Shown here: positions 29,311-62,333 of the stretch, piece after piece
Numbering within the stretch: the stretch's first letter is position 1
Layout of the letters: each line of letters starts with the position of its first letter
Source of the DNA: a virus
Direction: 5' to 3' (one strand)
Length of the DNA: 64,000 nt
IMG/VR virus record: IMGVR_UViG_3300017989_000002
Program-made: the position numbers and the translations under genes
Notes under the pieces: model-generated
What the model saw: the letters and a program-made list of their open reading frames with translations, nothing else
The model's database searches: none
What the model was told of the DNA's origin: nothing

Positions 29311-30984
29311 CTACGACACAGCGTTGATCAGGTCCTTCCGGCGGACGTCGTTCATCGAGACGAGCAGGGCGTAGACCATCGTGTGCAGGAAGTCGTCGGG
29401 CTGGGTCCGGGGGTGGTCGTACACGATCTGGCGGCGCAGCCGGCTGTACTCGCTGTAGACGGCGAGGATGTCGTTGGCGTACGGCTCGAAGTCCTCCCAG
29501 TTCGGGAAGCACGTCCCCTGGCTCACCGGCCCCCTCTTGATGAGCTCGAAGGCCAGGGCCAGGACGCGCGACCGGTGGGTGGTGTAGACGTTGCGGTCGC
29601 CGTCGTACTTCACCAGCTTGGCCTGCCCGTCGGAGTGCTGGAACTGGTGGAAGCGCTCCGCGCCGAAGGCCTTGAGGAGGTGGCGGTTCGTCTCGAAGCC
29701 GAAGCCCCAGTCTGCCCCGATGCGGTTGACGCCGTACCGCTTGCAGATCTTCTCCATGTCGCGCCAGGAGTAGTCGGGGTCCGCCTCGTGCCCGACGTAC
29801 TTCTTCGCGAAGATGCACCGGAAGCGGCCGTAGCTGTCGTAGCCCCAGATGGACAGGACCGAGAAGGAGGCGTCGCCGGTGCCCCAGTCGATGCCCGCCC
29901 ACTTCGCGCTCTGCCGGAACATGGAGGTGGGCTTGTCCACGAACTCCAGGTCGGGGAGGGCGCAGCGCCGGACCTGCTGGAAGGTGACGGGCTTCGTGCC
30001 GCTGTCGTGGCTGCGGGCGAAGACCTCGTTCTGTAGCTTGCCGCGAGGGTAGTTCTGGACCTTGTGGAGCAGGGTCTCCCACTTCCGCCAGAAGATCTTG
30101 GGCTGGTCTCTGTACACGTACTCGACGATGGGCTGAGGAACCCGGAAGCCCTCCCACTCCGCGCTGCTGGCCCCGTGCCGTACCCACGTCCCCTGCGTCA
30201 TCGGGTCGAGCTCGCGGTCGCACTTCTTGCAGCACAGGCCCTCGGGGCGCACGTTCTCGATCTCGATGACGTTCCACGTCCGGCACCTGGTGCATCGGAC
30301 CATCCACTCGTTCTGGGTGCTGCGCCGCGCCCAGTAGTGCTCGATGCTGTTGTCGTAGGTCTTCGGCGTGCCGGCGTAGACCTTGAGGTCGCCCTCCTCG
30401 AAGGAGCAGGCGCGCGTGGTCTCCTCGATGACGGGCAGGCCGTCGAGGTACACATCCTGCAGCTCGTCGATGTACAGGTGGTCGCACATGACGCCGCGCG
30501 CTCGGTCCGGGCCCTTGTAGACGGAGCGCAGGTTGATCTTGGCCTGCCCCAGCCACCGCTTCGTCAGGACGTTCTGGACCTGGCTGCTCGACAGGTCCTT
30601 GAGGATCGGGCTGTCCTCGATGACCGCCCGCAGTCGCTCGTCGCTGAACTCGAGCATCTGCGTGTTCGAGGCCGTGACGTACAGGCTGCGCAGGTAGGGG
30701 ATGAGGTTCGACGTCGAGAGCAGGAGGTTGCCCAGCGTCGTGCTCTTCTCGGACTGACGCCCGAAGACCAGGAGGATGCGTCGCCGCCAGATCTCGCGCT
30801 CGATGTCCGAGTCGGTGTTCGGGAGAGGCGAGAACGGGAGGTTGTAGATGTGGTACAGCCAAGGGCGGTTCCCCAGCTCGATGGACTCGCCCTTGTGGTT
30901 CACCGCCATCTGGGTGAACTCGTAGGGAGTGAAGTCGATGGGCTCGTCGTACGCACCATCAACGGCTAGAGCAGAAGCACCCAT
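29311..30984 (-). CDS. terL: Terminase large subunit
   Basis: Walker A FGRQSEKST, Walker B LYIDELQD, motif III GTPK, CTRC/CKKC Zn insert, RNase H-like GIDWG...ADWG...PDDFLH. Confidence 0.9.
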   Translation of the reverse strand: MGASALAVDGAYDEPIDFTPYEFTQMAVNHKGESIELGNRPWLYHIYNLPFSPLPNTDSDIEREIWRRRILLVFGRQSEKSTTLGNLLLSTSNLIPYLRSLYVTASNTQMLEFSDERLRAVIEDSPILKDLSSSQVQNVLTKRWLGQAKINLRSVYKGPDRARGVMCDHLYIDELQDVYLDGLPVIEETTRACSFEEGDLKVYAGTPKTYDNSIEHYWARRSTQNEWMVRCTRCRTWNVIEIENVRPEGLCCKKCDRELDPMTQGTWVRHGASSAEWEGFRVPQPIVEYVYRDQPKIFWRKWETLLHKVQNYPRGKLQNEVFARSHDSGTKPVTFQQVRRCALPDLEFVDKPTSMFRQSAKWAGIDWGTGDASFSVLSIWGYDSYGRFRCIFAKKYVGHEADPDYSWRDMEKICKRYGVNRIGADWGFGFETNRHLLKAFGAERFHQFQHSDGQAKLVKYDGDRNVYTTHRSRVLALAFELIKRGPVSQGTCFPNWEDFEPYANDILAVYSEYSRLRRQIVYDHPRTQPDDFLHTMVYALLVSMNDVRRKDLINAVS

Positions 30985-38821: not shown

Positions 38822-40360
38822 TCACCCCATCGAAGCGAACGACGAGGGGAGAGCGATGACGTTGGGTGCGCCGCCGGCGCCGACCGAGCCTGTGCCCTTG
38901 ATCGGGATGCCAGTCATGAAGTCGACCGGGTGGGACAGCGTGGTGACCACGGCTCCCGCTGGGCCCGCAGGTCCCTGCACCACGGTCCCGGAGTTGTCCA
39001 CGGAGATCGTACCTCCCGGCGTCGTGATGGACGCCCCCGTGCTGTTGAGCTCCACGACCACGGTCCCGGCCACGCCCTCCATCTTGATCGTGCCGTCGAG
39101 CTTCATCGTCACCTTGGAGAGGAGGGACTCCACGGTGGGTCCGACGCCGAACATGATGTCGTCCAGGGAGGCCTGCAGCAGGAGCTTGCCCTGGGCGACC
39201 TTGTGAACCGACCCGAACTCGTCGCCGTTCATGTTGGAGACGACGACGGACATGGCCCCCGCCACGATGTCCTCACTGTTCTCCCCCACCGTGCGGCTCG
39301 CACTCCCCCCGATCGTGTCCTTGAGGGAGGCGCCCGTAGAACGCACCTGGTTGCCCGCGACCTTGCGCACGGAGTCGCCGCCGACGTCGACGAGCTGCTT
39401 CTCGCCCACGGTCAGGACGTGGTTCCCTCGGGCCTGCCTCACGAGGGTTCCGGCGGACACGGTGTCGGCCTGGCCTGTCGTGACGGTGCGGGTGCGCGTC
39501 ACCTCTCGACGGACGTCGCCGAACTTGTCGATGAGCTTGCCGCGCACGGTCCTCGAGAGCTGGGACGCGAAGGACTGGACGACAGGCCCCTCGAAGGCGT
39601 GCACCGCGCCGCCGTAGACGACGGACGAGACGTTCCCGGCCCGGTCCACCCAGACCTTCGCCCCGTTGTTGATGTTCAGGACGGCGATGATCGAGTCGGT
39701 CTTGCCGAAGGGGAGCTGCTTGGCGTCCTCCTCCTGGACCCGCCCGGCTCGGACCTTGATGATGGGCTCGTCCTCGCTGAACTCCTTGAAGTCCAGCTTG
39801 AACTCGACCGGCGTGCGGTCCTCACCGTGCCGGTCGTCTTCCCGCCTCGAGGTCCAGGACATAGAGCCGGACGCCGCGGACACGAACCAGTTCTCGAAGT
39901 AGTCCCGGATGGTGTTGCGGATGGGGACGTAGAGGCGCTTGGCGAACTGGGTGGCCCCGAACTCGAGGACCCCGCTGGCCCGGAGCACGGCAAACCCTCC
40001 CTGCGCGCTCGACGCCAGCATGTGATCGCCCTCGTTGAGGACAGGACGGTTCTGACGGAAGTCGTTGGGGTCTTCCTGCGCGTCCCCCTCGTCGAGCTGC
40101 CTTGGCGGCGTCTCGCAGGCGAAGATGAAGGGTGTCCGGGCAGTAGAGGGGAACAGCAGCCAGACGACCGTCCCCTGCTCCAGCGTCAAGAACGACCCGG
40201 CACCGTCCGAATTCACGAAGGCGGGCACGTACTTGATGCCACGGTGCATGCCTCCGAACTTGTCCAGGACGTCGTAGTTGTGCGCCAGGGTGTTGACCGC
40301 CTGGACTACGCCCTTCACGACCCGGACGGGACGCAACCTGCCGTCGGTGGGGCCTCTCAT
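38822..40360 (-). CDS. Baseplate central spike (gp5/VgrG/GpV-like)
   Basis: N-terminal OB-fold pattern, ~8-residue VG/GN beta-helix repeats (VRKVAGNQVRSTGASLKDTIGG), tip motif HPVDFMTGIP. Confidence 0.7.
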   Translation of the reverse strand: MRGPTDGRLRPVRVVKGVVQAVNTLAHNYDVLDKFGGMHRGIKYVPAFVNSDGAGSFLTLEQGTVVWLLFPSTARTPFIFACETPPRQLDEGDAQEDPNDFRQNRPVLNEGDHMLASSAQGGFAVLRASGVLEFGATQFAKRLYVPIRNTIRDYFENWFVSAASGSMSWTSRREDDRHGEDRTPVEFKLDFKEFSEDEPIIKVRAGRVQEEDAKQLPFGKTDSIIAVLNINNGAKVWVDRAGNVSSVVYGGAVHAFEGPVVQSFASQLSRTVRGKLIDKFGDVRREVTRTRTVTTGQADTVSAGTLVRQARGNHVLTVGEKQLVDVGGDSVRKVAGNQVRSTGASLKDTIGGSASRTVGENSEDIVAGAMSVVVSNMNGDEFGSVHKVAQGKLLLQASLDDIMFGVGPTVESLLSKVTMKLDGTIKMEGVAGTVVVELNSTGASITTPGGTISVDNSGTVVQGPAGPAGAVVTTLSHPVDFMTGIPIKGTGSVGAGGAPNVIALPSSFASMG

Positions 40361-40998: not shown

Positions 40999-43900
40999 TC
41001 AGTACTGGCCGCGCCAGTCCTTGACCTTGCCCTTGGTCTTGCCGAATTCGGAGCCCACCGCCAGCCCTGGGAGGGGATGGAAGCCGTGGATGTTGGACCG
41101 CCAGCCCTCGCGGAACGCCTGGGTCAGCGAAGACCCCAGGTCCTCGAAGTTGAGGCGGGCCAGCCAATCCTCCTTGAGCTCCTTCGGCAGCAGCTTGACA
41201 CCCTTCACCTGGGGCTCGTGAGCCACCGACTTCTTCCCTGCCCGGGCGGCCTTGCGGTTCCACGCGTTGACCTTGGTCACGGGGCGGATGTCGCCGGGCA
41301 CCCAGTCCGGGTGGTCTCCAGGGTCCTCGACGCGGGTGATGTCGGTCATGGCCTTGACCACGACCTCGATGTTGCGCCGCTTCACCGGGGCTGCCTTCTT
41401 GAGCACGCCCTGGATCTGGTCGGTCACGTAGTCCTGCATCTGGTGCAGGCCCCGTAGGTTCAGCACGTCTCGCGGGTTCTGGGGCCCCGTGGAGAGCGCG
41501 GTGCCGCGGGCCACACGCTGGCCCTTCTTCACCTTCAGGTCCTGCCCAGGAGGCACCCACAGCGTGGCGTCGCCCATGTAGACGTTGTGCCCGCCTCGGT
41601 CGGCCTTCTTCACGTCCTTCACCGTCCCCGACTGTGGGGCGAGCGGCGCCGTGAACGGCAGGTTCGTGTTGAGGGTGAGCAGCTCCTCGAGGCGCTTGAA
41701 GGTGCCCATCGAGTCGGAGCCGCGGCCCTTGGCCAGCCCGCCCTGGTGGAAGACGTTGAGGGACAGCTGGGTGCTGGGCTCTCCGACAGCCTGAGAGGCG
41801 ACGACGCCGAGGTTGTCTCCGATGTCGTAGGGACGCCCGTTCTCGGACAGGCCCATGCACTTCTTGCAGATCCCGTCCTCGGACTGGCACCTCGTCGGGG
41901 AGCGGACCTCGATCGCGCCCTTCCGGCCCTTCTTCGCGGCGGCCAGGAGGTGCGGCGTCACGACGGAGCCGCGGCGGTAGGTCTTGCCTCCGACGCGGAG
42001 GGGCTTGGCCAGGTAGCGGTCCAGGGCGTCGTGGTCGTCGACCGAGAGCTTCGTCCCGTCGCCCGTGCCGCAGTCGTCCTCCGTGACGAGCTGGTCCACG
42101 GTGCTGTTGATCATGAGGCGGGTCATGTAGCCTGGCATGGCCACGCCCTGCGTCTTCTGTAGGGTGCCCTTGCGCGCGCCGGCGAGCGTGACCCAGTACG
42201 CACTAGTGTCCAGGCCCTCCGAGTACGAGCTCGGCACCAGGAAGGGCACGACCTCGTCCTTGGCGTTCTTCACGAGCCCAGGCGTCGAGATGATCTGCTT
42301 GAGCTGCTCCGGCTTGCCTCGCGAGCCCGACGTCACCATCTGGTAGATGTTGGTCGGGTCCGCCTTCAGCTTCTGGGTCGTCAAGGCGTCGATGCGGTCG
42401 GTCGCCTTGTCCAAGATCGACAGGACCTCAGCGGACTTGCGCTTCCTGCCCTGCCGCAAGAGTGCGTCGACTTCCCGGTTCGACTCCCCGATGATCCGGT
42501 CCCGCTTGGCCTTGTTCACGACCCGGAAGTCGTCCAGGCCGATGGAGAAGGCCTCCTTGTACGAGTGCTCGTTCCCGAGCATCGTCAGGGCGTTGGTGAC
42601 CTTGCCGTAGTCCTGCTCGTGCTCCCGTCCGAGGCGGGACAGGAGTCCCTTCATCCTCTTGGCGTCGAGCACCGTCATGTCCTTGACCTTCCGCTTCCCC
42701 GTCTCGCGGTACTGCGCGGGGAGGACGGACTCGACGCGAAGGCGGCCCAGCGTCGTCTCCGCGCCACCGACGCGCACGATGTCGTCGAGGTTCAGGTTGC
42801 CCGTCCGGAACGCCTTCTCGGCCTCGGCCTGCGTCTTGAAGGTCTTCGAGGTCTTCTTCCCCGGCTTCGTCATCAGGTACAGGCCGAGCAGCGCCTCGTG
42901 CCCCGGGGTGTGCATGATCGCGCCGGTCGTCGGGCTGAAGAGGTTCTTCGAGGGGAACATCTTGGTGGCTTCGCGAGCCGCCTGGTCCGAGATGGGGACG
43001 TAGACCGACATGGCATCGCCGTCGAAGTCGGCGTTGAAGCCTCCCACGGCCAGGGGGTGCATCTCCAGCGCCGAGCCCTTCACGAGCCTGGGCCGGAACG
43101 CCTGGACGTTGAACTTGTGGAGGGCGGGGTCGCGCTTGAACAGGACCGGGCGCTGGCTCATCGCTCGCTCGAGGGCGTGGCGCGACCTGTCCGACTTCTT
43201 GGCGTACTCCTCCTCGGCGTCGAGGTAGCCCATGCCCTCCCGGACGAGCTCGCGCTCGGCGAAGGGCTGGTAGAGCGTCCACGCGATCTTCTCGGGGATT
43301 CCCAGCTCGTCGAGGTCCTGGCCGGGCTCCACCGTGATGGTCGACCGAGCACTGAAGTCCTGCCGCTTGCGCAGCATGTTCTTGCGGAAGAACCCCTCCT
43401 TCGAGCGGCCCCCGTCGCTGCCGTCGCTGCGCCGCACCTTGCCGGTGATGAGGTCGATGATGCCCTTGTAGCTGTCGTCCTGGCTCGACCGCGCGCGCCG
43501 ACTGATGTTGCCGCCGACGCCAGACAAGGCCTTCACCCCGTCGTAGACGCCCTTGCGGATGGGAGCCATGGACACGTAGTCCATGTGCACGTCCTTGAGC
43601 TTCTGGAGGCCCTCGGCCGTGAACGCGACGTCCTTGTACAGGAAGTTGAGGTCGTTGGTCATGAGCCGGCCGTCGGCCTGGGGCGTGACCGGGCGGAAGC
43701 GTGGCGGGAGGACCGGCACCGACCGCATCATGTAGACCGACGGGTCGAGGCCTCCCTCGTTGAGCGCGCGCACGATCCGGTAGCGCTTGTACGCCTTGTC
43801 CCGAGTCGCACCGGGCTTGAGGGACGACAGCCGCTCCTTGAGGCGCTTCTCCTCGGCCTTCACGTCGATGCCGGAGAGCATCTCCTCGATGGCTTCACCG

Positions 43901-46900
43901 CCGCGCTTGCCGTTGACCTGCGTCTCGCCGCTCACCAACTTGTTGAACTTGGCCTGGTTGATGCCCAGGAGCTTCTTGATGGCGTCCTCGAAGACCGGGT
44001 TCGGGATGGCCTCGGGAAGCTCGAACCGCGACCAGCGGTCGCCGTCGACGCCGCCGGTGATCTCGGGGTCGAACAGGCCGCCCCGGATCGGCTCCGCCGT
44101 GGTGGAGTGGAGCACGAGGCCTGGCTGTGGAAGCGCCTTGGGAGCCAGGGCCTTCACCTGGTCCTCGGTGAAGGGCATGAGCTGGAGGCTGTTGCCGTTG
44201 CGCCGCACGTTGACTCGCACGCCGTTGAGCATGCTGAGGAACTTCTCGTACACGAAGGGCGCCTTCGGGGGAGGCAGGGGCGTTCCTTCCCGAAGGGCGT
44301 CCCACAGAGCCGTGTTCCGCTCGCCCTTGTACGCCTGCATCTCGTGCAGGTTCTCCCGCGCGCCGTGCGCCAGGAGGGCGTAGGTGCCCAGCTCGCCCAG
44401 GGACTGCCCGCCGTGGGGAGCTCCGGAGCTGGGGGCGTGGTTGATGTCGTAGGGGGAGGTGCTGCCGCCCGATGCCGTGCGGCCCGACCCAGAGCCAGAG
44501 CGCGCGCTCACCTTCTTGTCGACCTGGTGGCGCAGCTTGTAGAAGTACTGCTGGCCGACGGCGGCGCGCTGGCGGAACGGCTTCTCCGTCTCAGGGTCGA
44601 ACAGGACCTCCTTGCCGTCCTCGGAGAACCCAGCGGCGCCAAGGTCCTTGGCCACCTGCGCCGTGTAGTCCGAGATCTCGGGATCGAAGTTCTTGACCTT
44701 GTAGACCTGACCCTTCCTGGCCGCGACCTTGCCCGCCGCCGTCTCCTGGACCTGACCGAGGTTGATGCGGCCTGGGATCCCCATCGGGTTCAAGGCGATG
44801 TCGAGGACCTTCTTCTCCCCGTCCTCTTCGACGTAGGGCATCTGAGAGTCGGTCATGATGCGGGTGATGACGCCCTTGTTGCCGTGACGCCCCACGAGCT
44901 TGTCGCCGACCTTGGCGGGCTCGGCCGTGCGGACGTGCACGACGACGCGCTCGACTCCTCGCTCCTTGAGCCGCTGAATGCGGACGACCTCGCCTTCGAC
45001 GTCCTTATCCCAGGTGATGGCACCGGAGACGAAGCGACGGGAGTTCCTCCGGCCTCGCTTCGGACGACCCGGGCGCGCGTCCGTGGGGTCGTGAAGCGCC
45101 AGCAGGAGAGGGTCCCCCTTCGACACACGTGCCCCGACCTTGACCACGCCGTCGTCCTGCACGTTCTCCAGCTGCCCCTTGTTGAACAGGGCTGGGTAGG
45201 AGTTGACGAACTTGCGCCGGTCGACCTGGGAGCTCTTGCCAAGGGTCGTCTCGGGCTTGTGGACGTGCTCGGAGGTGAGCTTGCCCGCCGCCGTCTCCGA
45301 GATGACGATGCCGTCCTCGAAGTTGTAGCCCTTGAGAGGCAGGTACCCGGTGCGGAGGTTGGTGCCGAGGGCCAGGACGCCATCGCGGGTGAAGGTGGTG
45401 TCGGCTACCACGTCCCCGGCCTTCACGGCGTCTCCTGCCTTGACCTTGACCTCCGAGTCGTAGAGCGAATTCGCCTTCGACCCGAAGTTGCGGAATAGGG
45501 CGACCTTGTGGCTCTTGCCTCCCGCGTCCTTGATGACCACGGCGTCCTTCTGGACCTGGGTCACGGTGCCGGCGACCGGGCTGGTTCGAGCCACTCGCTT
45601 GCCGAGCTCCTCCTCGAAGGTCTTGCCCGAGTCCGACAGTACCTGGACCAGAGGGGCTTCCCTGTGCTTGAGCGGCACCGCCTGCTCGGCCTGGCGGGAG
45701 GCCGTCATGGTGCGGTTGCCCTGGTCCGAGGACAGGAAGGGGATGAGGTTCGACGTGATGCCGAACATCTCCCGGGGAGAGGGCATGATGTAGTCGACGC
45801 TGCGAGGAGCGACGTCGGTGATCTCGCCGTCCTTCTGGACCAGGACGCGCTTCTTGCGCGCCACCCGCTTCCGGCCCGACTCCCGGTACTCGTCCGGGAA
45901 GGCCACGGACTTGCCTTGGAGCTGGGTCGGGTCGAGCCAGACCGTCTTGCCGGTCTTCGCGTCGATGAACCGGGACTCGAGCTTCCGCCCCTTCTTGCGC
46001 GTGCCCAGGGGGATGGAGAGCGTGATGCCCAAGCGGGGGCCCTCCGGCGTGTGCACGGGGTCGAGGAACCCGAGCTGGCTCGGGTCGATCATCTTCGCCT
46101 CGTCGGAGACGACGTGCTCCGACCGGATGCCTCCGTGAGGGCCCATGAGCGTCGTGCGGCGCGAGGCCGACAGCGCCTGCAGCGGGTTGATGAGCTCGGT
46201 CTGGTTCGCCAGGGAGGTCGAGAAGAAGCTGTTGAAGGGACGCTGCAGCGCCTCGCTGGGCATCATGGCCCGCACGCCGCCCTTCTCCTTCCGGGCCATC
46301 GCCGACTTCACCCGGCGCTGGATGGCCTTCTTGCTCTTCCGGAGCTGGTCACCGAACAGCTCCGGGGCTCCCGCGATGCGCTGGAACTCCATCGCCTCCT
46401 GGTTGTCCTCCGGGTCTCCCTTCACGATGCCGACCAGCTTCTTGGCACTCTGCAGCAGGACGTCGGGCGTGACCTCCTTGGCGTCCATGCCCAACGTCCG
46501 GCGCGTCGTCTCGGGGTAGAGCTCCGTCTCGGCCAGCTTCTCCTTGAGCACGGACTCCGTCTCGTCGACCTTCACCCCGAGCCACCGCGCCAGTCGAGCA
46601 CGGGACTTCTTGGGCTGGGACGCCTTGAGGCTCGAGGACCACACGCTCTCGGGCAGCACGGCCTTGATCTTCGAGTCGTCGGTTCCTGCCATGCGGAGGA
46701 AGTCCACGAGCGGGATCTTCGACGTCCCCCGCATGACCGCCACTTCCGACGTCGCGGGGTCGTACTGGACCTTCATCCGCCGGCCCGCGAACTGGCTGCG
46801 GTTCGCGAGGTTGAAGTCGGCTACCGCATCGCCGCTCTCGCGCATGCGGTGGTAGACACCGGACTTTCGCGTGAACAGGTTGGAGATGTGGTACTCGTTG

Positions 46901-47202
46901 CCGTTGTAGATGTACGAGCCCCTCTCGGTCATCCGAGGGAGGTCCATCACCTTGAGCCGGCGGCGCGACACGTCCTTGCCATTGCGCGACAGGACCACGT
47001 CGGCCTCGACAGGCACTGCCCACGTCTTCCCGTTGTCGATGGCGTCCGACTGGGCCGTCACGTCGTCGGGGTTCTTGGTGTCGCGGACCGCGACGTTCTC
47101 GAGGCGGATGCTGTCCCGGCCGTTCTCGACGGGGAACACCTCGGTCAGCGCCTCGGCGACCTCACGCTTCACGCTCTCGAAGCTGTCGACTGGGTTGGAC
47201 AC
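40999..47202 (-). CDS. rpoBC: Single-chain fused beta-beta' DNA-directed RNA polymerase
   Basis: Beta motifs TPEG, GYNFEDG, GDKLVGRHGNKG, RINLGQ, KLRHQV, GGQSLGE followed in the same frame by beta' motifs GGLFD, VLPPRFRP, KRQDFSAR, RDPALH, NADFDGD, SGSRG, GARKG, GEPSTQL. Confidence 0.95.
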   Translation of the reverse strand: MSNPVDSFESVKREVAEALTEVFPVENGRDSIRLENVAVRDTKNPDDVTAQSDAIDNGKTWAVPVEADVVLSRNGKDVSRRRLKVMDLPRMTERGSYIYNGNEYHISNLFTRKSGVYHRMRESGDAVADFNLANRSQFAGRRMKVQYDPATSEVAVMRGTSKIPLVDFLRMAGTDDSKIKAVLPESVWSSSLKASQPKKSRARLARWLGVKVDETESVLKEKLAETELYPETTRRTLGMDAKEVTPDVLLQSAKKLVGIVKGDPEDNQEAMEFQRIAGAPELFGDQLRKSKKAIQRRVKSAMARKEKGGVRAMMPSEALQRPFNSFFSTSLANQTELINPLQALSASRRTTLMGPHGGIRSEHVVSDEAKMIDPSQLGFLDPVHTPEGPRLGITLSIPLGTRKKGRKLESRFIDAKTGKTVWLDPTQLQGKSVAFPDEYRESGRKRVARKKRVLVQKDGEITDVAPRSVDYIMPSPREMFGITSNLIPFLSSDQGNRTMTASRQAEQAVPLKHREAPLVQVLSDSGKTFEEELGKRVARTSPVAGTVTQVQKDAVVIKDAGGKSHKVALFRNFGSKANSLYDSEVKVKAGDAVKAGDVVADTTFTRDGVLALGTNLRTGYLPLKGYNFEDGIVISETAAGKLTSEHVHKPETTLGKSSQVDRRKFVNSYPALFNKGQLENVQDDGVVKVGARVSKGDPLLLALHDPTDARPGRPKRGRRNSRRFVSGAITWDKDVEGEVVRIQRLKERGVERVVVHVRTAEPAKVGDKLVGRHGNKGVITRIMTDSQMPYVEEDGEKKVLDIALNPMGIPGRINLGQVQETAAGKVAARKGQVYKVKNFDPEISDYTAQVAKDLGAAGFSEDGKEVLFDPETEKPFRQRAAVGQQYFYKLRHQVDKKVSARSGSGSGRTASGGSTSPYDINHAPSSGAPHGGQSLGELGTYALLAHGARENLHEMQAYKGERNTALWDALREGTPLPPPKAPFVYEKFLSMLNGVRVNVRRNGNSLQLMPFTEDQVKALAPKALPQPGLVLHSTTAEPIRGGLFDPEITGGVDGDRWSRFELPEAIPNPVFEDAIKKLLGINQAKFNKLVSGETQVNGKRGGEAIEEMLSGIDVKAEEKRLKERLSSLKPGATRDKAYKRYRIVRALNEGGLDPSVYMMRSVPVLPPRFRPVTPQADGRLMTNDLNFLYKDVAFTAEGLQKLKDVHMDYVSMAPIRKGVYDGVKALSGVGGNISRRARSSQDDSYKGIIDLITGKVRRSDGSDGGRSKEGFFRKNMLRKRQDFSARSTITVEPGQDLDELGIPEKIAWTLYQPFAERELVREGMGYLDAEEEYAKKSDRSRHALERAMSQRPVLFKRDPALHKFNVQAFRPRLVKGSALEMHPLAVGGFNADFDGDAMSVYVPISDQAAREATKMFPSKNLFSPTTGAIMHTPGHEALLGLYLMTKPGKKTSKTFKTQAEAEKAFRTGNLNLDDIVRVGGAETTLGRLRVESVLPAQYRETGKRKVKDMTVLDAKRMKGLLSRLGREHEQDYGKVTNALTMLGNEHSYKEAFSIGLDDFRVVNKAKRDRIIGESNREVDALLRQGRKRKSAEVLSILDKATDRIDALTTQKLKADPTNIYQMVTSGSRGKPEQLKQIISTPGLVKNAKDEVVPFLVPSSYSEGLDTSAYWVTLAGARKGTLQKTQGVAMPGYMTRLMINSTVDQLVTEDDCGTGDGTKLSVDDHDALDRYLAKPLRVGGKTYRRGSVVTPHLLAAAKKGRKGAIEVRSPTRCQSEDGICKKCMGLSENGRPYDIGDNLGVVASQAVGEPSTQLSLNVFHQGGLAKGRGSDSMGTFKRLEELLTLNTNLPFTAPLAPQSGTVKDVKKADRGGHNVYMGDATLWVPPGQDLKVKKGQRVARGTALSTGPQNPRDVLNLRGLHQMQDYVTDQIQGVLKKAAPVKRRNIEVVVKAMTDITRVEDPGDHPDWVPGDIRPVTKVNAWNRKAARAGKKSVAHEPQVKGVKLLPKELKEDWLARLNFEDLGSSLTQAFREGWRSNIHGFHPLPGLAVGSEFGKTKGKVKDWRGQY

Positions 47203-47243
47203 TCATCCCCTCCTGGGCTTCTACCCTAGCGCGAGGAGGGCAC

Positions 47244-49151
47244 TCAGACCGCCCCAGCGCGACGTGGGGGCCTCTGGGAAGGCATCGGCCGCATGTCGAC
47301 GACAGCCCCGCCGCCGGACCCCTCTTGCCCTGAAGAGATCATGCCGTCGCCCACTCCCGGGAGATCCTCGTCGGTCGTGCCTTGGTGGGGCGCCTCTGGC
47401 GTGGGGTACGACGCCAAGACGTGGCGCACGCGGCGAGCCATCTCGGGCATCTTCTCGTTCATGCTGGCGAGCACCTGCTCTCGCTTCGCCGGATCGAGCT
47501 GGGCCAGGCGGTAGGCCCAGCCTTCGGCGAGGTCCAGCACGTTGACCTGCCGGTTCGACACGTCATCCTGCACGGGAGGCTCTGCGGCGGCCTGCGCTCG
47601 CGCCTGCTGCCGCATCTGGACCTCGGCCTGGACGTCGGCCTGGGCCTCGACCTGCATCTTCTGCATGGCCAGCTTCTGGCGGAGCTCGTGGCGGATCATC
47701 CGCTGCTCGTCGTCGTAGTCCTTGTCGAACTCGGTGAGCAGCGACTTCGCGCTCAGGTCGCCCATCGTCTTGAGCTGCATCAGCAGCTGCTTGGCCTGCA
47801 CGTCGTCCGCCATCCGGAACTGCTTCATGTGGACCTTGACGGGGCTCCACTTCATGAACATCGAGATGACGGGGATGACGAAGTGCTGCAGGAAGCGGTG
47901 CTGCATGTCCCGGTCGGCCAGGAACATGTTCTCCAGCATGCGGATCGACACGCTCGACCCCGACCAGGTGAGCCCTCCGAAGACGAACTCCTGGGGCACG
48001 TTCATCCCGACCAGGACGTGCTCCGACATCGCCCGGATCTCTTGCGTCAGCATGAGGGACTTGCCCGTGCCTCCGATGCGCTGGTGACCGAGAGGGAGGC
48101 TCATGACGGGCTTGTGGTTCGGGTCCTTGCGCCAGAAGGCGAGCTGCTGCTCGGTGTCCTTCTGCCACTGCCCCAGGTTGGTGTGGACGTAGGGGTCCGC
48201 GTTGGGGCTGGAGGAGGCCGGGAAGAACACGTCGAGGGGCAGCATGTGCTCGAGCAGCACGGCCTCGTTCGCCTTCTTCATGATCTGCAGGTGGTAGCTG
48301 TCCTTCATCGCAGCCAGGATGGGAGGCAGGCCCCAGCCCCGGGCCGACTTCGTGGACGGCGACGGCGCCGCGAAGTGGAACAGGTTGGCGTCCACCAGGC
48401 GGACGGACCTGTTGAGCCTCACCGCCTCGAGGAAGGCCTGCGGCATGTCCGCGATGAACCAGGGGTCCTTCTGACGGATCTTGGCCGCGACGTCGGCGGG
48501 GACCTTGTAGGTGTACCGCTTGTTGGTCGTCACGGGGTTGAAGTCGATGTCGACCTGCTCGGGCTCCCACCGGACGATGCGGATGTCCTTGTGGGAGCGA
48601 ATGGGCTTGTCGAAGGCGCGCGCGCGGCCCGTGTGCCCACAGGAGGGACAAGTCAGGTGGAAGCGGAAGCCCTTGAAGTCCCAGTCCTTCTTGAACTTCA
48701 GCCGCTTGACCCGGTGACTCTCCTTGCAGTGCGAACACTGCAGCATCTTGAGGAAGGGCAGGTAGATCGAGGCGAAGGCGTTGCCGTAGGTGTAGTAGTC
48801 GATGGCCAGCTCGACCTGGACCTTCTGGATGTTCAGCACCCGGTGGAGGAGGTCTTCCCACCGCTGGACGTGGCGGTCGAAGCCCTCCTCTTCGTTGGCG
48901 TCGACCTGGACCTTGGTGACGGGGTAGGCCGCCATCTTCCGGACGCCGGATGAGATGAGCGGGTTCGTCGTGGCGTGGTAGGCCAGGCGCTTGAACAGCT
49001 GCTTGATGTTCTTCGGCAGGTCCATCGAAGCGATGTCCCACCACGGGCTCGGGTACCGGCTGGACTGGTTGCGGTGGTCCAGCGAGCCGTGCTTGAACGA
49101 GCCTGTGAGAGGGGCACCGGAGGTCCCTGCGCTGGACGAGAAGCTACCCAT
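47244..49151 (-). CDS. Portal protein
   Basis: YPSPWWD, IDYYTYGNAF, GWGLPPIL, GMNVPQEFVFG; Zn-ribbon insert CSHC...CPSC; Q-rich tail. Confidence 0.8.
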   Translation of the reverse strand: MGSFSSSAGTSGAPLTGSFKHGSLDHRNQSSRYPSPWWDIASMDLPKNIKQLFKRLAYHATTNPLISSGVRKMAAYPVTKVQVDANEEEGFDRHVQRWEDLLHRVLNIQKVQVELAIDYYTYGNAFASIYLPFLKMLQCSHCKESHRVKRLKFKKDWDFKGFRFHLTCPSCGHTGRARAFDKPIRSHKDIRIVRWEPEQVDIDFNPVTTNKRYTYKVPADVAAKIRQKDPWFIADMPQAFLEAVRLNRSVRLVDANLFHFAAPSPSTKSARGWGLPPILAAMKDSYHLQIMKKANEAVLLEHMLPLDVFFPASSSPNADPYVHTNLGQWQKDTEQQLAFWRKDPNHKPVMSLPLGHQRIGGTGKSLMLTQEIRAMSEHVLVGMNVPQEFVFGGLTWSGSSVSIRMLENMFLADRDMQHRFLQHFVIPVISMFMKWSPVKVHMKQFRMADDVQAKQLLMQLKTMGDLSAKSLLTEFDKDYDDEQRMIRHELRQKLAMQKMQVEAQADVQAEVQMRQQARAQAAAEPPVQDDVSNRQVNVLDLAEGWAYRLAQLDPAKREQVLASMNEKMPEMARRVRHVLASYPTPEAPHQGTTDEDLPGVGDGMISSGQEGSGGGAVVDMRPMPSQRPPRRAGAV

Positions 49152-49812
49152 TTCGTGGTCTCCGCAGGTGCACCGCCTGGTCCATGAGCTCCTGGCGGAA
49201 CTCGGCGAGGTCCTCCCGCACGGCCAACACCTCGTTCAACTGTACCTCGGCGGGACTGTCCGGGTTGGCGAAGGGCCGGCTCCGCGAAGCCAGGAGGTGA
49301 CGCACCTGGTCGAAGGGGAGGTCCAGCTTCTTGTCCTCCACGTACTCGGTGATGACCGGCCGCGAGATGTCCAGTGGGGCCTCGAGGTACCACAGACCGT
49401 CGTGCAGGCAGGCCGCGCCGATGTAGGCCACCACGTCGTAGTGGAAGTCGGGCTGGGCGAGTTCGGCCATGGTCAGGAGCGTCCGGGCCACGTCCTCGGC
49501 CTCGGGCGGCTGCATGTAGGCGAAGTCTGGCATCTCGCCGGCGACGGCAGAGACCACCTTCTCGAACACGCCCCACTCCTCCCACGCCATGTCGTTGGTG
49601 GCCAGGAGGCGCCCTGCCTGCACGCGGTTCCACGCGACGTCGCCGAGGCCTCCGAAGCGCTCGGTGATCTCCTCCCGCAGAGCCGCAGAGTCGAGGTCCC
49701 TGTAGGACGGTCCCAGGTGCGCCAGGAGCAGGCGATGAAGAACGAGGAGGTGGGTGCCTGCCTCGTCATCGAACGGCCCCGGCGCGCGCAGAAGTGGCGC
49801 GGATGCCGTCAT
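49144..49812 (-). CDS. Hypothetical protein
   Basis: High GC3; coupled between KxA protein and portal. Confidence 0.65.
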   Translation of the reverse strand: MTASAPLLRAPGPFDDEAGTHLLVLHRLLLAHLGPSYRDLDSAALREEITERFGGLGDVAWNRVQAGRLLATNDMAWEEWGVFEKVVSAVAGEMPDFAYMQPPEAEDVARTLLTMAELAQPDFHYDVVAYIGAACLHDGLWYLEAPLDISRPVITEYVEDKKLDLPFDQVRHLLASRSRPFANPDSPAEVQLNEVLAVREDLAEFRQELMDQAVHLRRPRNG

Positions 49813-50894
49813 CCCCCGACACCCCATCCCATGACGATGCGACCGAGGATGGTGGAGAGGCGGGGAGGCGCGGACTTGTAGGTCGCCACCGGGTCGCGAG
49901 AGAACTTGTCCGCGAAGTCGCTGCCGAACATGTCCCGGATCCGGACCATGACGCTGCTGTTGGCCGCCGCGTCGATGAACTCCTGCTCGGGAACTCCTGC
50001 TCGGTACTCCTTCTGCGTGGCCAGATCGATGCGCTCGACCTTGGCGACCTTCGTCATGCAGGAGTCGTAGGCATCGAACAGCTCGCGTCCCCAGGACTCG
50101 GAGAGCCCGGTGCGCCGGTCGAAGTGGGCCAGGCCCTGTGCGAGCTCGAGCGGGGCGACGTCGCCGGCGACGGAGGCGATCTTCTCGAGGGCCTGCACGT
50201 GCTCGACCGGCGCCTCACGCTCCTCGAGGATGTGCCTGCGGGTCAGGAAGTGGGACTGCCAGGACGGGTTGAGGTCCCGTCCCGCGCTCTTCTCCAGCGA
50301 CTCGGGCACTCGCATGCCGGCGTCTTCCGCCGCCTGGGCGACGTTGAACGCGAACTCGTGCCGGTCCTCGGGGTCCATGCGGACGGCGTTGTCGTCGAAG
50401 TAGTGGACGGCCGCCTTGATCTCCTGGGCCGACGAGAGGGGGAAGCGCTCGCCGAGGGCGTAGCTCTCCTCCCCCGGGGCCTCCGCGACCTTGGTCACCT
50501 CCTGGCCACCCTCCAGCATCACGTAGGGGGTTCCGTGATTCTCCGTGTCGCGGAGATCGTCCAGGAGTGCAGGGACGCCGAGGCCGTACCGCCGGCAGGA
50601 GTACGCCAGCCGAGCGGCAGCCACCTTCTCCGCCTCGGGGGGAAGGTCTCCGTGCGTCTCCCCGAAGTACATCACCGACAGCGCGGTGTGGCCGGGACTG
50701 GACATGAGGAAGCGCGGCTCCCTCTCGCGTCCGTCCGTGAGGACGACAGCGAAGTCGGCGTCCTGGTGACCCTCCCGCTCCGTGGCCTCGGCCGTCTTCA
50801 CGACGTCCGGAAGGGTGGAGGGGTCGGGGAAGTGCTCCTTGAGGAGGGCACCGCCGTCGTCGAACACATCGAGGGTCGCAGGCTGCAGGGTCAT
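49809..50894 (-). CDS. KxA-motif head protein (MTLQPATL...)
   Basis: VKTAE, AEKVAA, TKVAE, LEKSAG, LEKIAS, TKVAK. Confidence 0.7.
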   Translation of the reverse strand: MTLQPATLDVFDDGGALLKEHFPDPSTLPDVVKTAEATEREGHQDADFAVVLTDGREREPRFLMSSPGHTALSVMYFGETHGDLPPEAEKVAAARLAYSCRRYGLGVPALLDDLRDTENHGTPYVMLEGGQEVTKVAEAPGEESYALGERFPLSSAQEIKAAVHYFDDNAVRMDPEDRHEFAFNVAQAAEDAGMRVPESLEKSAGRDLNPSWQSHFLTRRHILEEREAPVEHVQALEKIASVAGDVAPLELAQGLAHFDRRTGLSESWGRELFDAYDSCMTKVAKVERIDLATQKEYRAGVPEQEFIDAAANSSVMVRIRDMFGSDFADKFSRDPVATYKSAPPRLSTILGRIVMGWGVGG

Positions 50895-50927
50895 CGGAGC
50901 TCCGACGAAGGAGGTGGGCACAATCGT

Positions 50928-50944
50928 CGCATAAGTAACACGTA
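50928..50944 (+). promoter_or_regulatory. Putative phage promoter CGCATAAG at head of replication operon
   Basis: CGCATAAGtaac in the divergent gap between late and replication blocks. Confidence 0.6.
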
Positions 50945-50977
50945 GGCAGGCATTTCCGCGCTTGCCAGGAGGTGTGC

Positions 50978-51352
50978 ATGGGGAAGAACTTGTGGGAGGA
51001 GCTCGAAGCCAAGTCCGGCGGCGGGTCTCCTTCCTGGGGAACGAAGAAGGGGTCAAGCCCTTCGTACCGGGCGCCGACCGCCCCGTCGAGCAGCCGAGAA
51101 GCCGTCGTGGGCCGGAAGACCGACCCCGCGAAGACGGCGACCGGCGACCCGACGGACCGGCCGTACGCCTACGTCCAGAACCGACCAGACGGAACCATCG
51201 AGGAGTGGAGACCTCCGACGTTCTGGCAGATCGCGGCCGACATGGGCCTGCGAGCACTCGAGGCCGCGCTCGTCGGAGCGTTCTCCGAGCTGGCGCTGTA
51301 CTTCACTCGTCGCCGGTTCGTGCCCAAGCACCACTGGGACCGGCCGCAGTGA
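50978..51352 (+). CDS. Hypothetical protein (MGKNLWEE...)
   Basis: AGGAGG RBS. Confidence 0.7.
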   Translation: MGKNLWEELEAKSGGGSPSWGTKKGSSPSYRAPTAPSSSREAVVGRKTDPAKTATGDPTDRPYAYVQNRPDGTIEEWRPPTFWQIAADMGLRALEAALVGAFSELALYFTRRRFVPKHHWDRPQ

Positions 51353-51756
51353 AGGTCTACCTCCGCAAGCTCCGCAAGGGCCGACCGCAGTGGGCCTCCA
51401 TCTTGCGCCGACGACGCGGGAAGCTCGGACTGTCCTTCGACGAGGTTGGAGCCCTCGTGGGACGTACCGGGAGAGCCATCCGAGGCTACGAATCCGCCTA
51501 CCGGACACCGGATGTCCCCACCTACCTGCACCTCCTGGACGTCCTGGGTATCCGCGGTCAGTGGAGGGCCGAGGCCTTGGTGGCGTTCGCTCGCGCACGT
51601 CTTGGTGGACTCGACGTGCACGTCAACTCCCGCTCACCCGAGACCTACATCCGGGCGAGCATCCACGCTGCCGGTCTGACCGGCCAAGCCGCAGAGGACG
51701 CAGTCTCTTCGGTGCTGGAACAGCTACCTCTCTGCGATAGGCGAGATCGACGATGA
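51349..51756 (+). CDS. XRE-family HTH transcriptional regulator
   Basis: LRRRRGKLGLSFDEVGALVGRTGRAIRGYESAYRTP. Confidence 0.75.
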   Translation: MKVYLRKLRKGRPQWASILRRRRGKLGLSFDEVGALVGRTGRAIRGYESAYRTPDVPTYLHLLDVLGIRGQWRAEALVAFARARLGGLDVHVNSRSPETYIRASIHAAGLTGQAAEDAVSSVLEQLPLCDRRDRR

Positions 51757-53138
51757 ACCGAAGCAAGAAGGCGGGCGTGGCCTACCGCGGGGCGAGCCTC
51801 TGGCTCCCCAAGAGCCACGTGGGAGAGGAGGCCGTGAAGGGCTCCCTCTCGTTCCAGACGAAGAAGAGCTCCTCGCTGTTCGAGGCGTTCACCGAGACGC
51901 AGCATCACCTGGTGGTGCCGCGGCACTACATCCCGGTCGAGGACCTGGACGAGCTCGGCTGCGAGATCGTCTTCGACGACCCGCCCGAGTTCTTCCGCAT
52001 CCCCGGGTGGGTGAAGCCCACTCACGAGCTGCGGCGAGGCCTCGAGTTCGGGGAGGGGAAGACCAACCAGGTCGCCATGTGGAAGGCCCTCGTCGAGGGC
52101 GGCGACGGCGTCGGAGTCCTGAAGTGCGGCGGAGGCAAGACCGTCATCGGCATCCACGCGGCCCTCAGCGTGGGGTACGCGGCGATGTTCGTGGCCCACA
52201 ACGGCTCCCTGCTGGGGCAGTGGAAGGAGCGGCTCCTCGAGCACACGAACATCGATGAGGAGCACATCGGGATGATCGGCGACGGCACCCTGGACTGGGA
52301 GGGGAAGCCGTTCTGCATCGCGTCCATCCAGACGCTGTGGCAGGCCATCGAGGCCGGGCGCTTGCCCGAAGAGCTGCGGTGGCACTTCGGGACCGTGGTC
52401 TACGACGAGGTCCACCACATGGCGGCCGAGAAGTTCAACCTCGCGGCGGACCTGTGCCACGGCGTGCGGTGGGGCCTGACCGCGACTCCCGACCGCACCG
52501 ATGGTCTGGAGGGCCTCTACTCGGCCCACATCGGCCCCCAGCTCTACCGGGACCTCGAGCAGGACCTGACGCCTGGCGTGTTCTTCGTCCGTACGGGGCA
52601 GGAGCTCACGGGCGATCAGGAGGACGCCTCCAAGGACAAGCGCGGCGAGTTCAACATCGGGAAGTTCCACACGGCACTTCTCCGCGACCCGGCCCGAGAT
52701 CGCGTCATCGAGAAGTACGTGAACCTCGCGCTCAGCGACGACCACGAGGTCATGGTCCTCACCCCGAGCCGTGACCACCTGACAGATCTGTCGCACAAGT
52801 GGAAGGGAGACAACGTCTCGGTCATCCACGCCGGCGTGAAGCAGAAGGACCGGCCCGAGCTCGTCGACAACTGCAAGCTCCTGCTCGCCATCGAGGAGCT
52901 CGGCATCGAGGGTCTCGACAAGCCGATGCTCTCCGTCGTGGTCATCTCGGTGGCCATGAAGAACCGCAACGCCCTGCAGCAGATCATGGGCCGCATCCAG
53001 CGCGCCGTGGAAGGGAAGCCCGACCCGGTGGTCATCATCATCTTCGACGACAAGATCAAGCGCTGCCGCCGCTGGGCTGCCCGGATGCAGGCTTCCTTCA
53101 CCAGCTGGAACATCCCCTTCCGCATCATCGACGCATGA
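51753..53138 (+). CDS. Superfamily 2 DNA helicase (UvsW/XPB-like)
   Basis: KCGGGKT, VVYDEVHH, GLTATPDR, EGLD, QIMGRIQR. Confidence 0.88.
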   Translation: MNRSKKAGVAYRGASLWLPKSHVGEEAVKGSLSFQTKKSSSLFEAFTETQHHLVVPRHYIPVEDLDELGCEIVFDDPPEFFRIPGWVKPTHELRRGLEFGEGKTNQVAMWKALVEGGDGVGVLKCGGGKTVIGIHAALSVGYAAMFVAHNGSLLGQWKERLLEHTNIDEEHIGMIGDGTLDWEGKPFCIASIQTLWQAIEAGRLPEELRWHFGTVVYDEVHHMAAEKFNLAADLCHGVRWGLTATPDRTDGLEGLYSAHIGPQLYRDLEQDLTPGVFFVRTGQELTGDQEDASKDKRGEFNIGKFHTALLRDPARDRVIEKYVNLALSDDHEVMVLTPSRDHLTDLSHKWKGDNVSVIHAGVKQKDRPELVDNCKLLLAIEELGIEGLDKPMLSVVVISVAMKNRNALQQIMGRIQRAVEGKPDPVVIIIFDDKIKRCRRWAARMQASFTSWNIPFRIIDA

Positions 53139-62149: not shown

Positions 62150-62332
62150 ATGGCTGACATGGAGAAGTACGGCGTCGTCGACACCGAGCAGGAGAAGACG
62201 GCGGCCTCGAAGGCGAAGAAGCAGATCGAGAAGGCTGGCGCCAAGCGCGCCGGGCCGGGTGCTGTTCCGGACGCGGACGCGTTCAAGAACAAGCTCGGCA
62301 AGCCGCCCACCAAGAAGCCCAAGGAGGACTGA
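62150..62332 (+). CDS. Small Lys-rich protein with EKTAAS motif (MADMEKYG...)
   Basis: AGGAG RBS; fills gap between polA and recA. Confidence 0.65.
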
Positions 62333-62333
62333 C

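What the first reader, a model, noticed from the sequence alone, without database searches (positions are those of the whole stretch)
40999..47202. Single-polypeptide fused beta-beta' RNA polymerase embedded among virion genes
Seen: all beta motifs then all beta' motifs lie in one 2067-aa frame with no stop at the junction (about 44200-44230, ...LNGVRVNV-RRNGNSLQL...), and the catalytic NADFDGD is intact. The gene sits directly downstream of portal, in the - strand morphogenesis block. No alpha, omega or sigma gene is recognisable in the window. Established: phiKZ-like RNAPs are split into several subunits, natural rpoBC fusions occur in Helicobacter and Wolbachia, and bacterial beta plus beta' total about 2700 aa. 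Inference: a streamlined, bacteria-like, possibly alpha-independent RNAP that is virion-packaged and transcribes early genes.
Basis: partly seen in the sequence, partly recalled or inferred. Interest (0 to 1): 0.85.

Follow-up and report, generated by a model that had tools for sequence, protein, structure and literature searches.

The report
Single-chain phage RNA polymerase beside portal
A complete 175-kb uncultured phage encodes both large subunits of a bacterial-type RNA polymerase as one 2067-residue protein next to its portal gene, plus its own sigma factor. It probably carries this enzyme in the virus particle to start its own transcription, and I found no paper describing the design.

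Summary
Window 40999-47202 (-) is one uninterrupted 2067-aa ORF. It holds a complete beta module (residues 1-1004) joined without a linker to a beta' module (1005-2067), and every catalytic motif is intact.

It is not an assembly artefact. The ORF is identical in two assemblies, and more than 100 metagenomic homologues (36-81% identity, contigs up to 215 kb) keep the same in-frame junction.

The genome is complete (174.7 kb, terminal repeats).

The order portal, RNAP, spike-like gene, terminase is conserved. The distant cultured relative Salmonella phage Arash carries its RNAP and sigma homologues abundantly in particle preparations.

New here:
- The fused state is ancestral in the clade, and the Arash-type cut in beta' is secondary.
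- The beta' zinc finger is deleted.
- The protein keeps only four cysteines, all zinc ligands, a profile like this phage's virion proteins.
- Two promoter-like boxes unlike sigma70 consensus exist, and one is conserved in relatives.

Virion packaging, independence from host alpha and promoter use are inferred, not shown. This scan has noted the same stretch and a relative before.

The parts
40999..47202 (-). Fused beta-beta' RNA polymerase gene (2067 aa, about 228 kDa, pI about 9.7)
   Evidence: ORF and translation. Pfam Rpb2 and Rpb1 domains in one frame. Bacterial beta' and beta PDB hits at E 1e-108 and 1e-86. Mass and pI.
44191..47202 (-). Beta module, residues 1-1004. It aligns to E. coli beta 28-1342 without SI1 and SI2, and the flap-tip helix is not conserved.
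   Evidence: BLAST and MAFFT mapping to E. coli RpoB; PDB alignments
40999..44190 (-). Beta' module, residues 1005-2067. It aligns to E. coli beta' about 32-1381 without the N-terminal zinc finger (64-88) and SI3.
44167..44217 (-). Beta/beta' junction (residues about 996-1012). The beta C-terminal tail runs straight into the beta' N-terminal strand with no linker.
   Evidence: Alignment to E. coli and family consensus GVNVKKEGNxLxLxPFT
43015..43035 (-). Catalytic NADFDGD (residues 1390-1396)
   Evidence: Invariant in the family alignment
44872..44892 (-). Beta active-site GRHGNKG (residues 771-777, equivalent to E. coli K1065 and K1073)
41857..42072 (-). Second zinc site. C1711, C1772, C1779 and C1782 are the only four cysteines of the protein.
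47209..47214 (-). Shine-Dalgarno AGGAGG, 6 nt before the GTG start
47222..47228 (-). TAGGGTA box 26 nt before the RNAP start. It belongs to a TAGnnT class enriched upstream of morphogenesis-strand genes and is a candidate promoter element.
47244..49151 (-). Portal protein gene (635 aa), directly upstream
   Evidence: E 5e-91 to Arash portal gp204 and 1e-91 to the Vibrio D69 homologue; Atlas portal clusters, TM 0.55-0.70
38822..40360 (-). 512-aa gene with a weak gp5 C-terminal match, a probable central spike or hub protein. Its position downstream of the RNAP is kept in relatives.
   Evidence: Pfam PF22178, E 4e-4. The syntenic homologue in L009 carries a faint Phage_base_V hit.
29311..30984 (-). 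Large terminase subunit (557 aa), same strand and same block
   Evidence: PF05876, E 3e-11; same position in L009 and L011
50928..50935 (+). CGCATAAG box at the head of the divergent replication-gene unit. It is one of 15 genomic copies and is conserved at the same site in relatives.

Best explanation
This is the catalytic core of a phage-specific, bacterial-type RNA polymerase made as one chain. A full beta module is fused head-to-tail to a beta' module, which removes the need to bring the two large subunits together.

I infer the following, none of it shown directly. The enzyme is made late with the structural genes. It is packed into the capsid together with the phage's own sigma70-family factor and delivered with the DNA. 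There it works without alpha or omega and transcribes phage genes from phage-specific promoter boxes. Newly made copies then carry the rest of the programme, because the genome has no second polymerase.

What is shown: the fusion, the intact active site, the single locus, the absence of alpha and omega homologues, the sigma gene, and the synteny with the portal.
For: - Fusion and motifs.
- The ORF is identical in two assemblies.
- At least 120 fused homologues exist, and more on MAG-binned phage contigs.
- The genome has one Rpb1/Rpb2 locus.
- There is no omega. The only alpha hit, to PF01000, is weak and antisense to real genes. PF01193 is absent from this genome and from four relatives' phage contigs.
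- The sigma70-family protein gives a full-length SigB/F/G-type match at E 8e-10. It is homologous to Arash gp10 (E 2e-18) and lies on the same contig as the RNAP in 4 of 4 main-family relatives.
- In Arash particle preparations gp206 (beta plus the beta' N-half) has the most spectra, 3516. gp216 and the sigma gp10 are also abundant (PMC10585845).
- The order portal, RNAP, spike-like gene, terminase is kept at 81%, 70%, 50% and 37% RNAP identity.
- Cysteine content: 4 in 2067 residues, all zinc ligands, against 16-42 in the 12 bacterial beta plus beta' rows, two of which are cut short. The sigma has none. The morphogenesis block has 0.51% Cys and other genes 1.49%.
- Promoter-like boxes are strand- and module-specific, and CGCATAAG is conserved at a syntenic site in relatives with 49-68% GC.
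Against: - There are no proteomic, RNA or biochemical data for this phage.
- The Arash particle sample held 116 proteins, including ribonucleotide reductases and kinases. Its authors allow carry-over of abundant infection proteins.
- Sequence cannot exclude recruitment of host alpha.
- The phage sigma could instead serve host RNAP.
- Its usual docking sites are altered: the beta flap-tip helix is not conserved and the beta' zinc finger is missing.
- I did not find an obvious capsid-targeting or cleavage signal at the N-terminus.
Confidence: 0.72

Rival explanations
1. It is a non-virion polymerase. Host RNAP transcribes the early genes, and the fused enzyme is made during infection and takes over middle or late transcription, as T7 RNAP or the PhiKZ non-virion RNAP do. 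It is not packaged.
For: There is no direct virion evidence here. The Arash particle proteome is very inclusive. A TAGGGTA box directly before the gene could allow expression apart from the structural operon.
Against: - The gene sits between portal and spike/terminase genes on the same strand throughout the family.
- The Arash homologue gives more spectra than the capsid protein.
- The cysteine purge matches this phage's virion proteins, not its replication enzymes.
- There is only one RNAP locus.
- The CGCATAAG box is kept in relatives of very different GC content, which argues against dependence on host sigma70 promoters.
Confidence: 0.17
2. It is a replacement core that assembles with host alpha2 (and omega, or host sigma), so the phage reprogrammes a hybrid enzyme rather than running an autonomous one.
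For: It is closer to bacterial beta and beta' (E 1e-108) than to PhiKZ-type subunits (PHROG E about 1e-19). Most of the beta and beta' length that could hold alpha-contact regions is retained.
Against: - Identity to any bacterial enzyme is only 27-29%.
- The bacteria form a separate side of the tree with a long stem.
- The family spans hosts with 36-68% GC.
- The phage brings its own sigma.
- PhiKZ and AR9 multisubunit RNAPs work without alpha and omega (reviews PMC7598289, PMC13282480).
Confidence: 0.08
3. It is an assembly or annotation artefact, or a decaying captured rpoBC gene without function.
For: None found.
Against: - The ORF is identical in independent assemblies.
- Hundreds of homologues have a conserved junction and invariant catalytic residues.
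- GC3 is 0.93 over the whole ORF.
- There is a strong ribosome-binding site.
- Inteins in homologues mark a conserved, needed gene.
Confidence: 0.01

Closest known systems
Salmonella phage Arash gp206 + gp216 + sigma gp10 (OQ632216; PMC10585845), with Vibrio phages D69, D148 and D181
   Same: They are homologues at 28-32% identity over the full length. The portal-adjacent position, the sigma homologue and a genome of about 180 kb are shared. The RNAP and sigma proteins were detected abundantly in Arash particle preparations.
   Different: There beta is fused only to the N-terminal half of beta' (1525 aa), and the C-terminal half (606 aa) is a separate gene 5 kb away. Here everything is one chain. 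The paper annotates gp206 simply as a beta subunit and does not discuss the fusion. In D181 a homing endonuclease cuts the gene once more.
Natural RpoBC fusions of Helicobacter and Wolbachia (NCBIfam NF007172, NF011417)
   Same: Beta then beta' in one polypeptide, with the beta C-terminus joined to the beta' N-terminus.
   Different: Those are cellular enzymes of about 2840-2890 aa that work with alpha2, omega and host sigmas. The phage protein scores 517 bits against a cut-off of 5372. It branches outside the sampled bacteria, lacks the zinc finger and the lineage insertions, and represents an independent fusion.
PhiKZ and AR9 jumbo-phage multisubunit RNAPs (virion and non-virion sets)
   Same: They are phage-encoded beta/beta'-type enzymes without alpha or omega, and one set is virion-packaged for early transcription.
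   Different: Those enzymes are split into 4-5 polypeptides, come in two paralogous sets, have no sigma homologue, and are far more divergent (PHROG E about 1e-19 against 1e-108 to bacteria). Here there is one gene, one set and a sigma70-family partner.
Yeast cytoplasmic linear-plasmid RNAP K2ORF6 with K2ORF7 (PMC6211774)
   Same: The large subunit is described as a beta-beta' fusion with the beta' C-terminal part separate, the same layout as Arash.
   Different: It comes from a eukaryotic plasmid, is strongly reduced, and shows no specific sequence relationship here. I read only the title, abstract and search hit.
Single-chain two-barrel virion RNAPs (crAss-like phi14:2 gp66, Thermus P23-45 gp96, YonO)
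   Same: One polypeptide carries both catalytic barrels. The first two are virion-delivered for early transcription.
   Different: Those keep little beyond the two barrels and are barely recognisable by sequence. This protein keeps nearly the whole bacterial beta and beta' domain set (all Pfam Rpb1/Rpb2 domains) and pairs with a sigma factor.

Membership tests
Bacterial-type multisubunit RNAP catalytic core (beta/beta' homologues) | Beta double-psi barrel with the two active-site lysines (GRHGNKG) | tested here: met
   Residues 771-777, conserved in the family; PF00562, E 1e-57
Bacterial-type multisubunit RNAP catalytic core (beta/beta' homologues) | Beta' barrel with NADFDGD, bridge helix and trigger loop | tested here: met
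   Residues 1390-1396, 1662-1707 and 1793-1828 are aligned and conserved
Bacterial-type multisubunit RNAP catalytic core (beta/beta' homologues) | Beta' N-terminal zinc finger (E. coli C70, C72, C85, C88) | tested here: not met
   E. coli beta' 64-88 is absent from the whole family. The flanking motifs GGLFDP and W..F.LPE are kept.
Bacterial-type multisubunit RNAP catalytic core (beta/beta' homologues) | Alpha2 and omega partners encoded or used | tested here: not met
   The complete genome has no PF01193 or PF01192 hit. The PF01000 hit is weak and antisense. Use of host alpha is not testable here.
Cellular RpoBC fusion proteins (NF007172 / NF011417) | Beta and beta' in one ORF in that order | tested here: met
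Cellular RpoBC fusion proteins (NF007172 / NF011417) | Score above the curated equivalog cut-off | tested here: not met
   516.7 bits against a cut-off of 5372, and 478 against 4632. Bacteria form a separate side of the tree.
PhiKZ/AR9-type jumbo-phage RNAPs | Beta and beta' each split into two or more polypeptides, with two paralogous sets | tested here: not met
   One continuous ORF, and one Rpb1/Rpb2 locus in the complete genome
PhiKZ/AR9-type jumbo-phage RNAPs | No sigma homologue; a phage-specific fifth subunit instead | tested here: not met
   A sigma70-family gene is present and conserved. I did not search for a gp68-like subunit.
Arash-like portal-adjacent phage RNAP with sigma | Sequence homology of RNAP, portal and sigma, and portal-RNAP adjacency | tested here: met
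   the tree places Arash inside the clade
Arash-like portal-adjacent phage RNAP with sigma | Beta' cut near residue 1480 into two genes | tested here: not met
   The frame is continuous here and in the main family
Arash-like portal-adjacent phage RNAP with sigma | Protein present in virions | not testable with these tools
   Known only from Arash particle proteomics. Here there is only indirect support from cysteine content and synteny.
Minimal single-chain two-barrel virion RNAPs (crAss gp66, P23-45 gp96, YonO) | Only the two barrels are recognisable and the bacterial accessory domains are lost | tested here: not met
   All Pfam Rpb1_1-5 and Rpb2_3/6 domains match, and near full-length alignments to bacterial beta and beta' exist

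The most novel reading that the evidence does not exclude
The family is a self-sufficient, minimal bacterial-type holoenzyme: one 228-kDa beta-beta' chain plus one phage sigma, with no alpha or omega. It is stored in the capsid, passed into the cell with the DNA, and runs the whole phage programme from its own promoter boxes. The loss of all non-ligand cysteines and of the zinc finger would be an adaptation to life outside the cell and to passage through the tail. The fusion would be the ancestral state, from which homing endonucleases and gene insertions produce split forms, a live model of how split phage RNAPs arise.
Probability: 0.4. Interest if true: 0.82.

Novelty: new variant of a known kind. 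Interest (0 to 1): 0.68.

Why it matters
Phage multisubunit RNAPs are described in the reviews I read (PMC7598289, PMC7824862, PMC13282480) as split, sigma-less enzymes of PhiKZ-like jumbo phages.

This family shows a different and widespread solution: the whole bacterial-type core in one chain, paired with a sigma factor, in phages of about 165-215 kb from many habitats. If the enzyme is active without alpha and omega, it bears on how far covalent fusion can replace the alpha scaffold in RNAP assembly. It would also give a compact sigma-dependent polymerase for structural and synthetic work.

The substitutions in the rifampicin pocket (D516E, H526A, S531T equivalents) predict a drug-insensitive enzyme.

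The nested split forms and the homing-endonuclease cut in Vibrio phage D181 give a concrete path from fused to split phage polymerases.

Tried and rejected
- PHROGs and Pfam on ten neighbours gave almost nothing. I identified the neighbours through Arash homology, the Atlas and synteny instead.
- The weak alpha-like hit (PF01000, E 0.009) lies antisense to well-supported genes and was rejected.
- The first scan of genome contigs with the single protein found nothing. The alignment scan worked.
- The SF2 helicase beside the operon (51753-53138 +) is not a detectable homologue of Arash virion helicase gp217 (E 0.03), so I make no helicase-partner claim.
- The motif E-K-x-A, proposed by another note as a maturation site, occurs only twice in the RNAP, at 221 and 1304. 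That gives no evidence for processing.
- Seven literature searches and six papers searched for key terms found no description of a fully fused phage beta-beta' enzyme. Papers outside the held library could exist.
- I did not fold the protein. It exceeds the 1200-residue limit, and folds of the halves cannot show alpha or sigma interfaces.
- The host was not identified. The taxa of MAG bins that hold relatives are inconsistent.
Full report
**1.
The window carries one ORF at 40999..47202 on the minus strand, 2067 codons, GTG start, no internal stop. AGGAGG lies 6 nt upstream of the start.

Pfam places the Rpb2-type domains (beta) at residues 337-902. The Rpb1-type domains 1 to 5 (beta') follow at 1143-1964 in the same frame. 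PDB sequence searches give bacterial beta' at E 1e-108 for residues about 1095-2041, and bacterial beta at E 1e-86 for the first 1000 residues.

Codon-position GC is 0.64/0.43/0.93 over the whole ORF, typical of real genes in this 68% GC genome.

The window lies in a single 174,678-bp record with direct terminal repeats and a CheckV completeness of 100%. The RNAP protein is identical in the JGI/IMG and the Logan/ENA assemblies of this phage. The four base differences between the two copies of the window all fall outside the gene.

**2. Anatomy.**
I aligned 37 family members with E. coli RpoB plus RpoC.

- Residues 1-1004 cover beta 28-1342.
- The beta C-terminal tail (GVRVNVRRNGN, matching E. 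coli GINIELEDE) runs directly into the beta' N-terminal strand (SLQLMPFTEDQV, matching E. coli DAIKIALASPDM). There is no linker.
- All catalytic elements are kept: GRHGNKG, the H1237 region, NADFDGD, the bridge helix, the trigger loop and the second zinc site.

Missing relative to E. coli:
- the lineage insertions beta SI1 and SI2 and beta' SI3;
- about 40 residues near beta 1168-1207;
- the beta' N-terminal zinc finger (64-88), cleanly excised family-wide between the conserved GGLFDP and W..F.LPE motifs.

The beta flap-tip helix, where sigma region 4 docks in bacteria, is short, basic and not conserved.

The rifampicin pocket carries the equivalents of Q513N, F514Q, D516E, H526A and S531T. 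I infer drug insensitivity from this; it was not tested.

**3. Surroundings.**
The 635-aa gene directly upstream is a portal. It matches the Arash portal at E 5e-91, and the Atlas feature and structure neighbours are all portal clusters.

Downstream on the same strand come a 201-aa gene, a 512-aa gene with a weak gp5 C-terminal match, further unassigned genes, and the large terminase. The opposite strand from 51.7 kb onward holds an SF2 helicase, UDG, a DnaB-like ATPase, primase, DNA polymerase A and RecA.

**4. The rest of the transcription kit.**
Six-frame family searches of the complete genome gave these results:

- There is only this one Rpb1/Rpb2 locus.
- There is no omega and no alpha N-terminal domain.
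- One weak PF01000 hit lies antisense to real genes.

A 261-aa sigma70-family protein is encoded at G000 173624-174409, about 28 kb beyond the window end, in another same-strand structural block. It aligns over its full length to SigB/F/G, FliA and ECF-type models (E 8e-10 to 2e-8, below the curated cut-offs). It is homologous to Arash gp10 (E 2e-18). It also sits on the same contig as the fused RNAP in four of four main-family relatives examined. Those phage contigs carry no alpha either.

**5. Relatives.**
The large protein collection returned 857 hits. The best 120 are all fused proteins. Most are 2035-2125 residues long and cover the whole query. A dozen longer ones (2400-2840 residues) mostly carry intein or LAGLIDADG domains, and one is a 1762-residue fragment. 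They share 36-81% identity with the query and lie on contigs up to 215 kb from marine, freshwater and other samples.

Several complete-looking contigs of about 174-204 kb are mis-binned into MAGs of unrelated phyla.

The order portal, RNAP, spike-like gene, terminase is kept at 81%, 70%, 50% and 37% RNAP identity.

Among cultured phages only distant relatives exist. Salmonella phage Arash and Vibrio phages D69, D148 and D181 have beta fused to the N-terminal half of beta' (about 1525 aa). The C-terminal half (about 606 aa) is a separate gene. In D181 a homing endonuclease cuts the fused gene again, into 514 and 1006 aa.

**6. Phylogeny.**
I built a maximum-likelihood tree of 47 rows and 1997 columns under LG+G4.

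- The 12 bacteria, from at least six phyla, fall on one side of a fully supported long branch.
- All portal-adjacent phage enzymes fall in one clade, ordered (L022 fused, ((Arash, D69), main fused family)).
- An AU test rejects a tree in which all fused forms exclude the split forms (p 0.0004).

With the root outside the clade, the fusion is ancestral and the Arash-type cut is secondary. Caveats: the model is simple, L022 is a long branch, the group was named after seeing the tree, there is no archaeal outgroup, and bacterial sampling is modest.

Divergence inside the phage clade exceeds that among the sampled bacterial phyla. I therefore see no sign of a recent capture from a sampled phylum.

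**7. Evidence on packaging.**
In Arash, gp206 gave the most spectra of any protein in the particle preparation (3516, against 1333 for the capsid protein). gp216 (1210) and the sigma gp10 were also detected (PMC10585845). The authors note that abundant infection proteins might carry over, and their list of 116 proteins includes metabolic enzymes. This is suggestive, not decisive.

| Protein set | Cysteine content |
|---|---|
| This RNAP | 4 in 2067 residues, all ligands of the second zinc site |
| Nearly every fused family member in the tree | also exactly 4 |
| The 12 bacterial beta plus beta' rows (two cut short) | 16-42 |
| Phage sigma | 0 |
| Morphogenesis-block proteins of this phage | 0.51% |
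| All other proteins of this phage | 1.49% |
| Terminase, which is not a virion protein | about 2% |

The RNAP thus looks like a virion component rather than an intracellular enzyme. The deleted zinc finger fits the same trend. I infer adaptation to an extracellular phase.

**8. Promoter-like signals (side evidence).**
- CGCATAAG, usually followed by GACTTGGAG, occurs 15 times in the genome. Fourteen copies are on the window plus strand, mostly 10-60 nt before non-structural genes.
- The copy at 50928-50935 heads the replication unit. The same 8-mer sits at the syntenic spot in relatives with 81%, 70% and 50% RNAP identity, in loci with 66%, 68% and 49% GC.
- TAGnnT occurs 13 times within 60 nt upstream of the 100 genes on the morphogenesis strand, where 1.5 are expected. 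It occurs twice before the 73 genes of the other strand.
- TAGGGTA lies 26 nt before the RNAP start and again 26 nt before a 1299-aa structural gene.
- Neither box resembles a sigma70 -35/-10 pair. Their conservation across hosts fits a phage-borne recognition system, but no RNA data exist.

**9. Comparison and novelty.**
- The architecture matches the cellular RpoBC fusions of Helicobacter and Wolbachia, but membership fails: the score is 517 bits against a cut-off of 5372, and the phage clade is separate from bacteria in the tree.
- The proposed biology matches PhiKZ/AR9 virion RNAPs. Those are split, duplicated and sigma-less.
- The closest real relatives are the Arash-type enzymes, whose paper did not recognise the fusion.
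- The yeast linear-plasmid enzyme is an architectural analogue (PMC6211774).
- I searched three reviews for mentions of fusion, including one from 2026, and none mentions a fused phage beta-beta' enzyme.
- I class this as a new variant of a known kind.

Noticed in passing
window 50928-50935 (+), 57166-57173 (+), 5749-5756 (+), 2080-2087 (+); 11 more copies elsewhere in G000: The box CGCATAAG, often followed by GACTTGGAG, has 15 copies. Fourteen are on one strand, just upstream of non-structural genes. It is conserved at the syntenic intergenic site in relatives L051, L053 and L009. It is a candidate phage-specific promoter.
   Followed up: partly
window 47222-47228 (-); G000 3649 and other sites: TAGnnT boxes are about 9-fold enriched within 60 nt upstream of morphogenesis-strand genes. 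TAGGGTA lies exactly 26 nt before the starts of the RNAP gene and of a 1299-aa structural gene. This is a possible second promoter class.
   Followed up: partly
P0001 residues 1711, 1772, 1779, 1782; whole genome G000: Cysteine has been purged. The RNAP keeps only its four zinc ligands and the sigma has none. Morphogenesis-block proteins have one third the cysteine content of the other proteins.
   Followed up: yes
homologues P0035, P0080, P0082, P0084-P0086, P0098, P0104, P0107, P0112, P0114; L021 8001-16535: Some family members are 2400-2870 aa long. The protein hits among them carry intein or LAGLIDADG homing-endonuclease domains inside the RNAP; the 2873-aa ORF in L021 was not checked for them.
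   Followed up: no
L012 (Vibrio phage D181) 2465-7979 versus L002 (D69) 5965-10548: A homing-endonuclease gene splits the beta-beta'N gene of D181 into 514-aa and 1006-aa ORFs, while the close relative D69 has it intact. This shows gene splitting by a mobile element.
   Followed up: partly
L039 and G006:C5 (136-kb contig); L034: This is another phage-like lineage, with beta' (about 1000 aa) encoded before beta (about 1400 aa). A second beta-like gene lies on the same contig, so it may have two RNAP sets. Both rows sit on long branches in the tree.
   Followed up: no
L032 6816-13031 (243-kb contig binned as Wallbacteria): A very divergent 2072-aa single-ORF beta-beta'-like protein, about 25% identical and cysteine-rich (34 Cys). 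It is a separate fused lineage on a jumbo-sized contig.
   Followed up: no
window 49809-51257 (-): The mechanical 482-aa ORF is probably over-extended. Its homologues in L009, L051 and L053 are 363 aa. That would leave a divergent intergenic region of about 70 bp at 50901-50971, which holds the CGCATAAG box.
   Followed up: partly
window 62259-63407 (+) and 60141-62135 (+): The phage encodes a bacterial-type RecA (PF00154, E 1e-101) and a family A DNA polymerase in the replication module divergent from the portal-RNAP operon.
   Followed up: no
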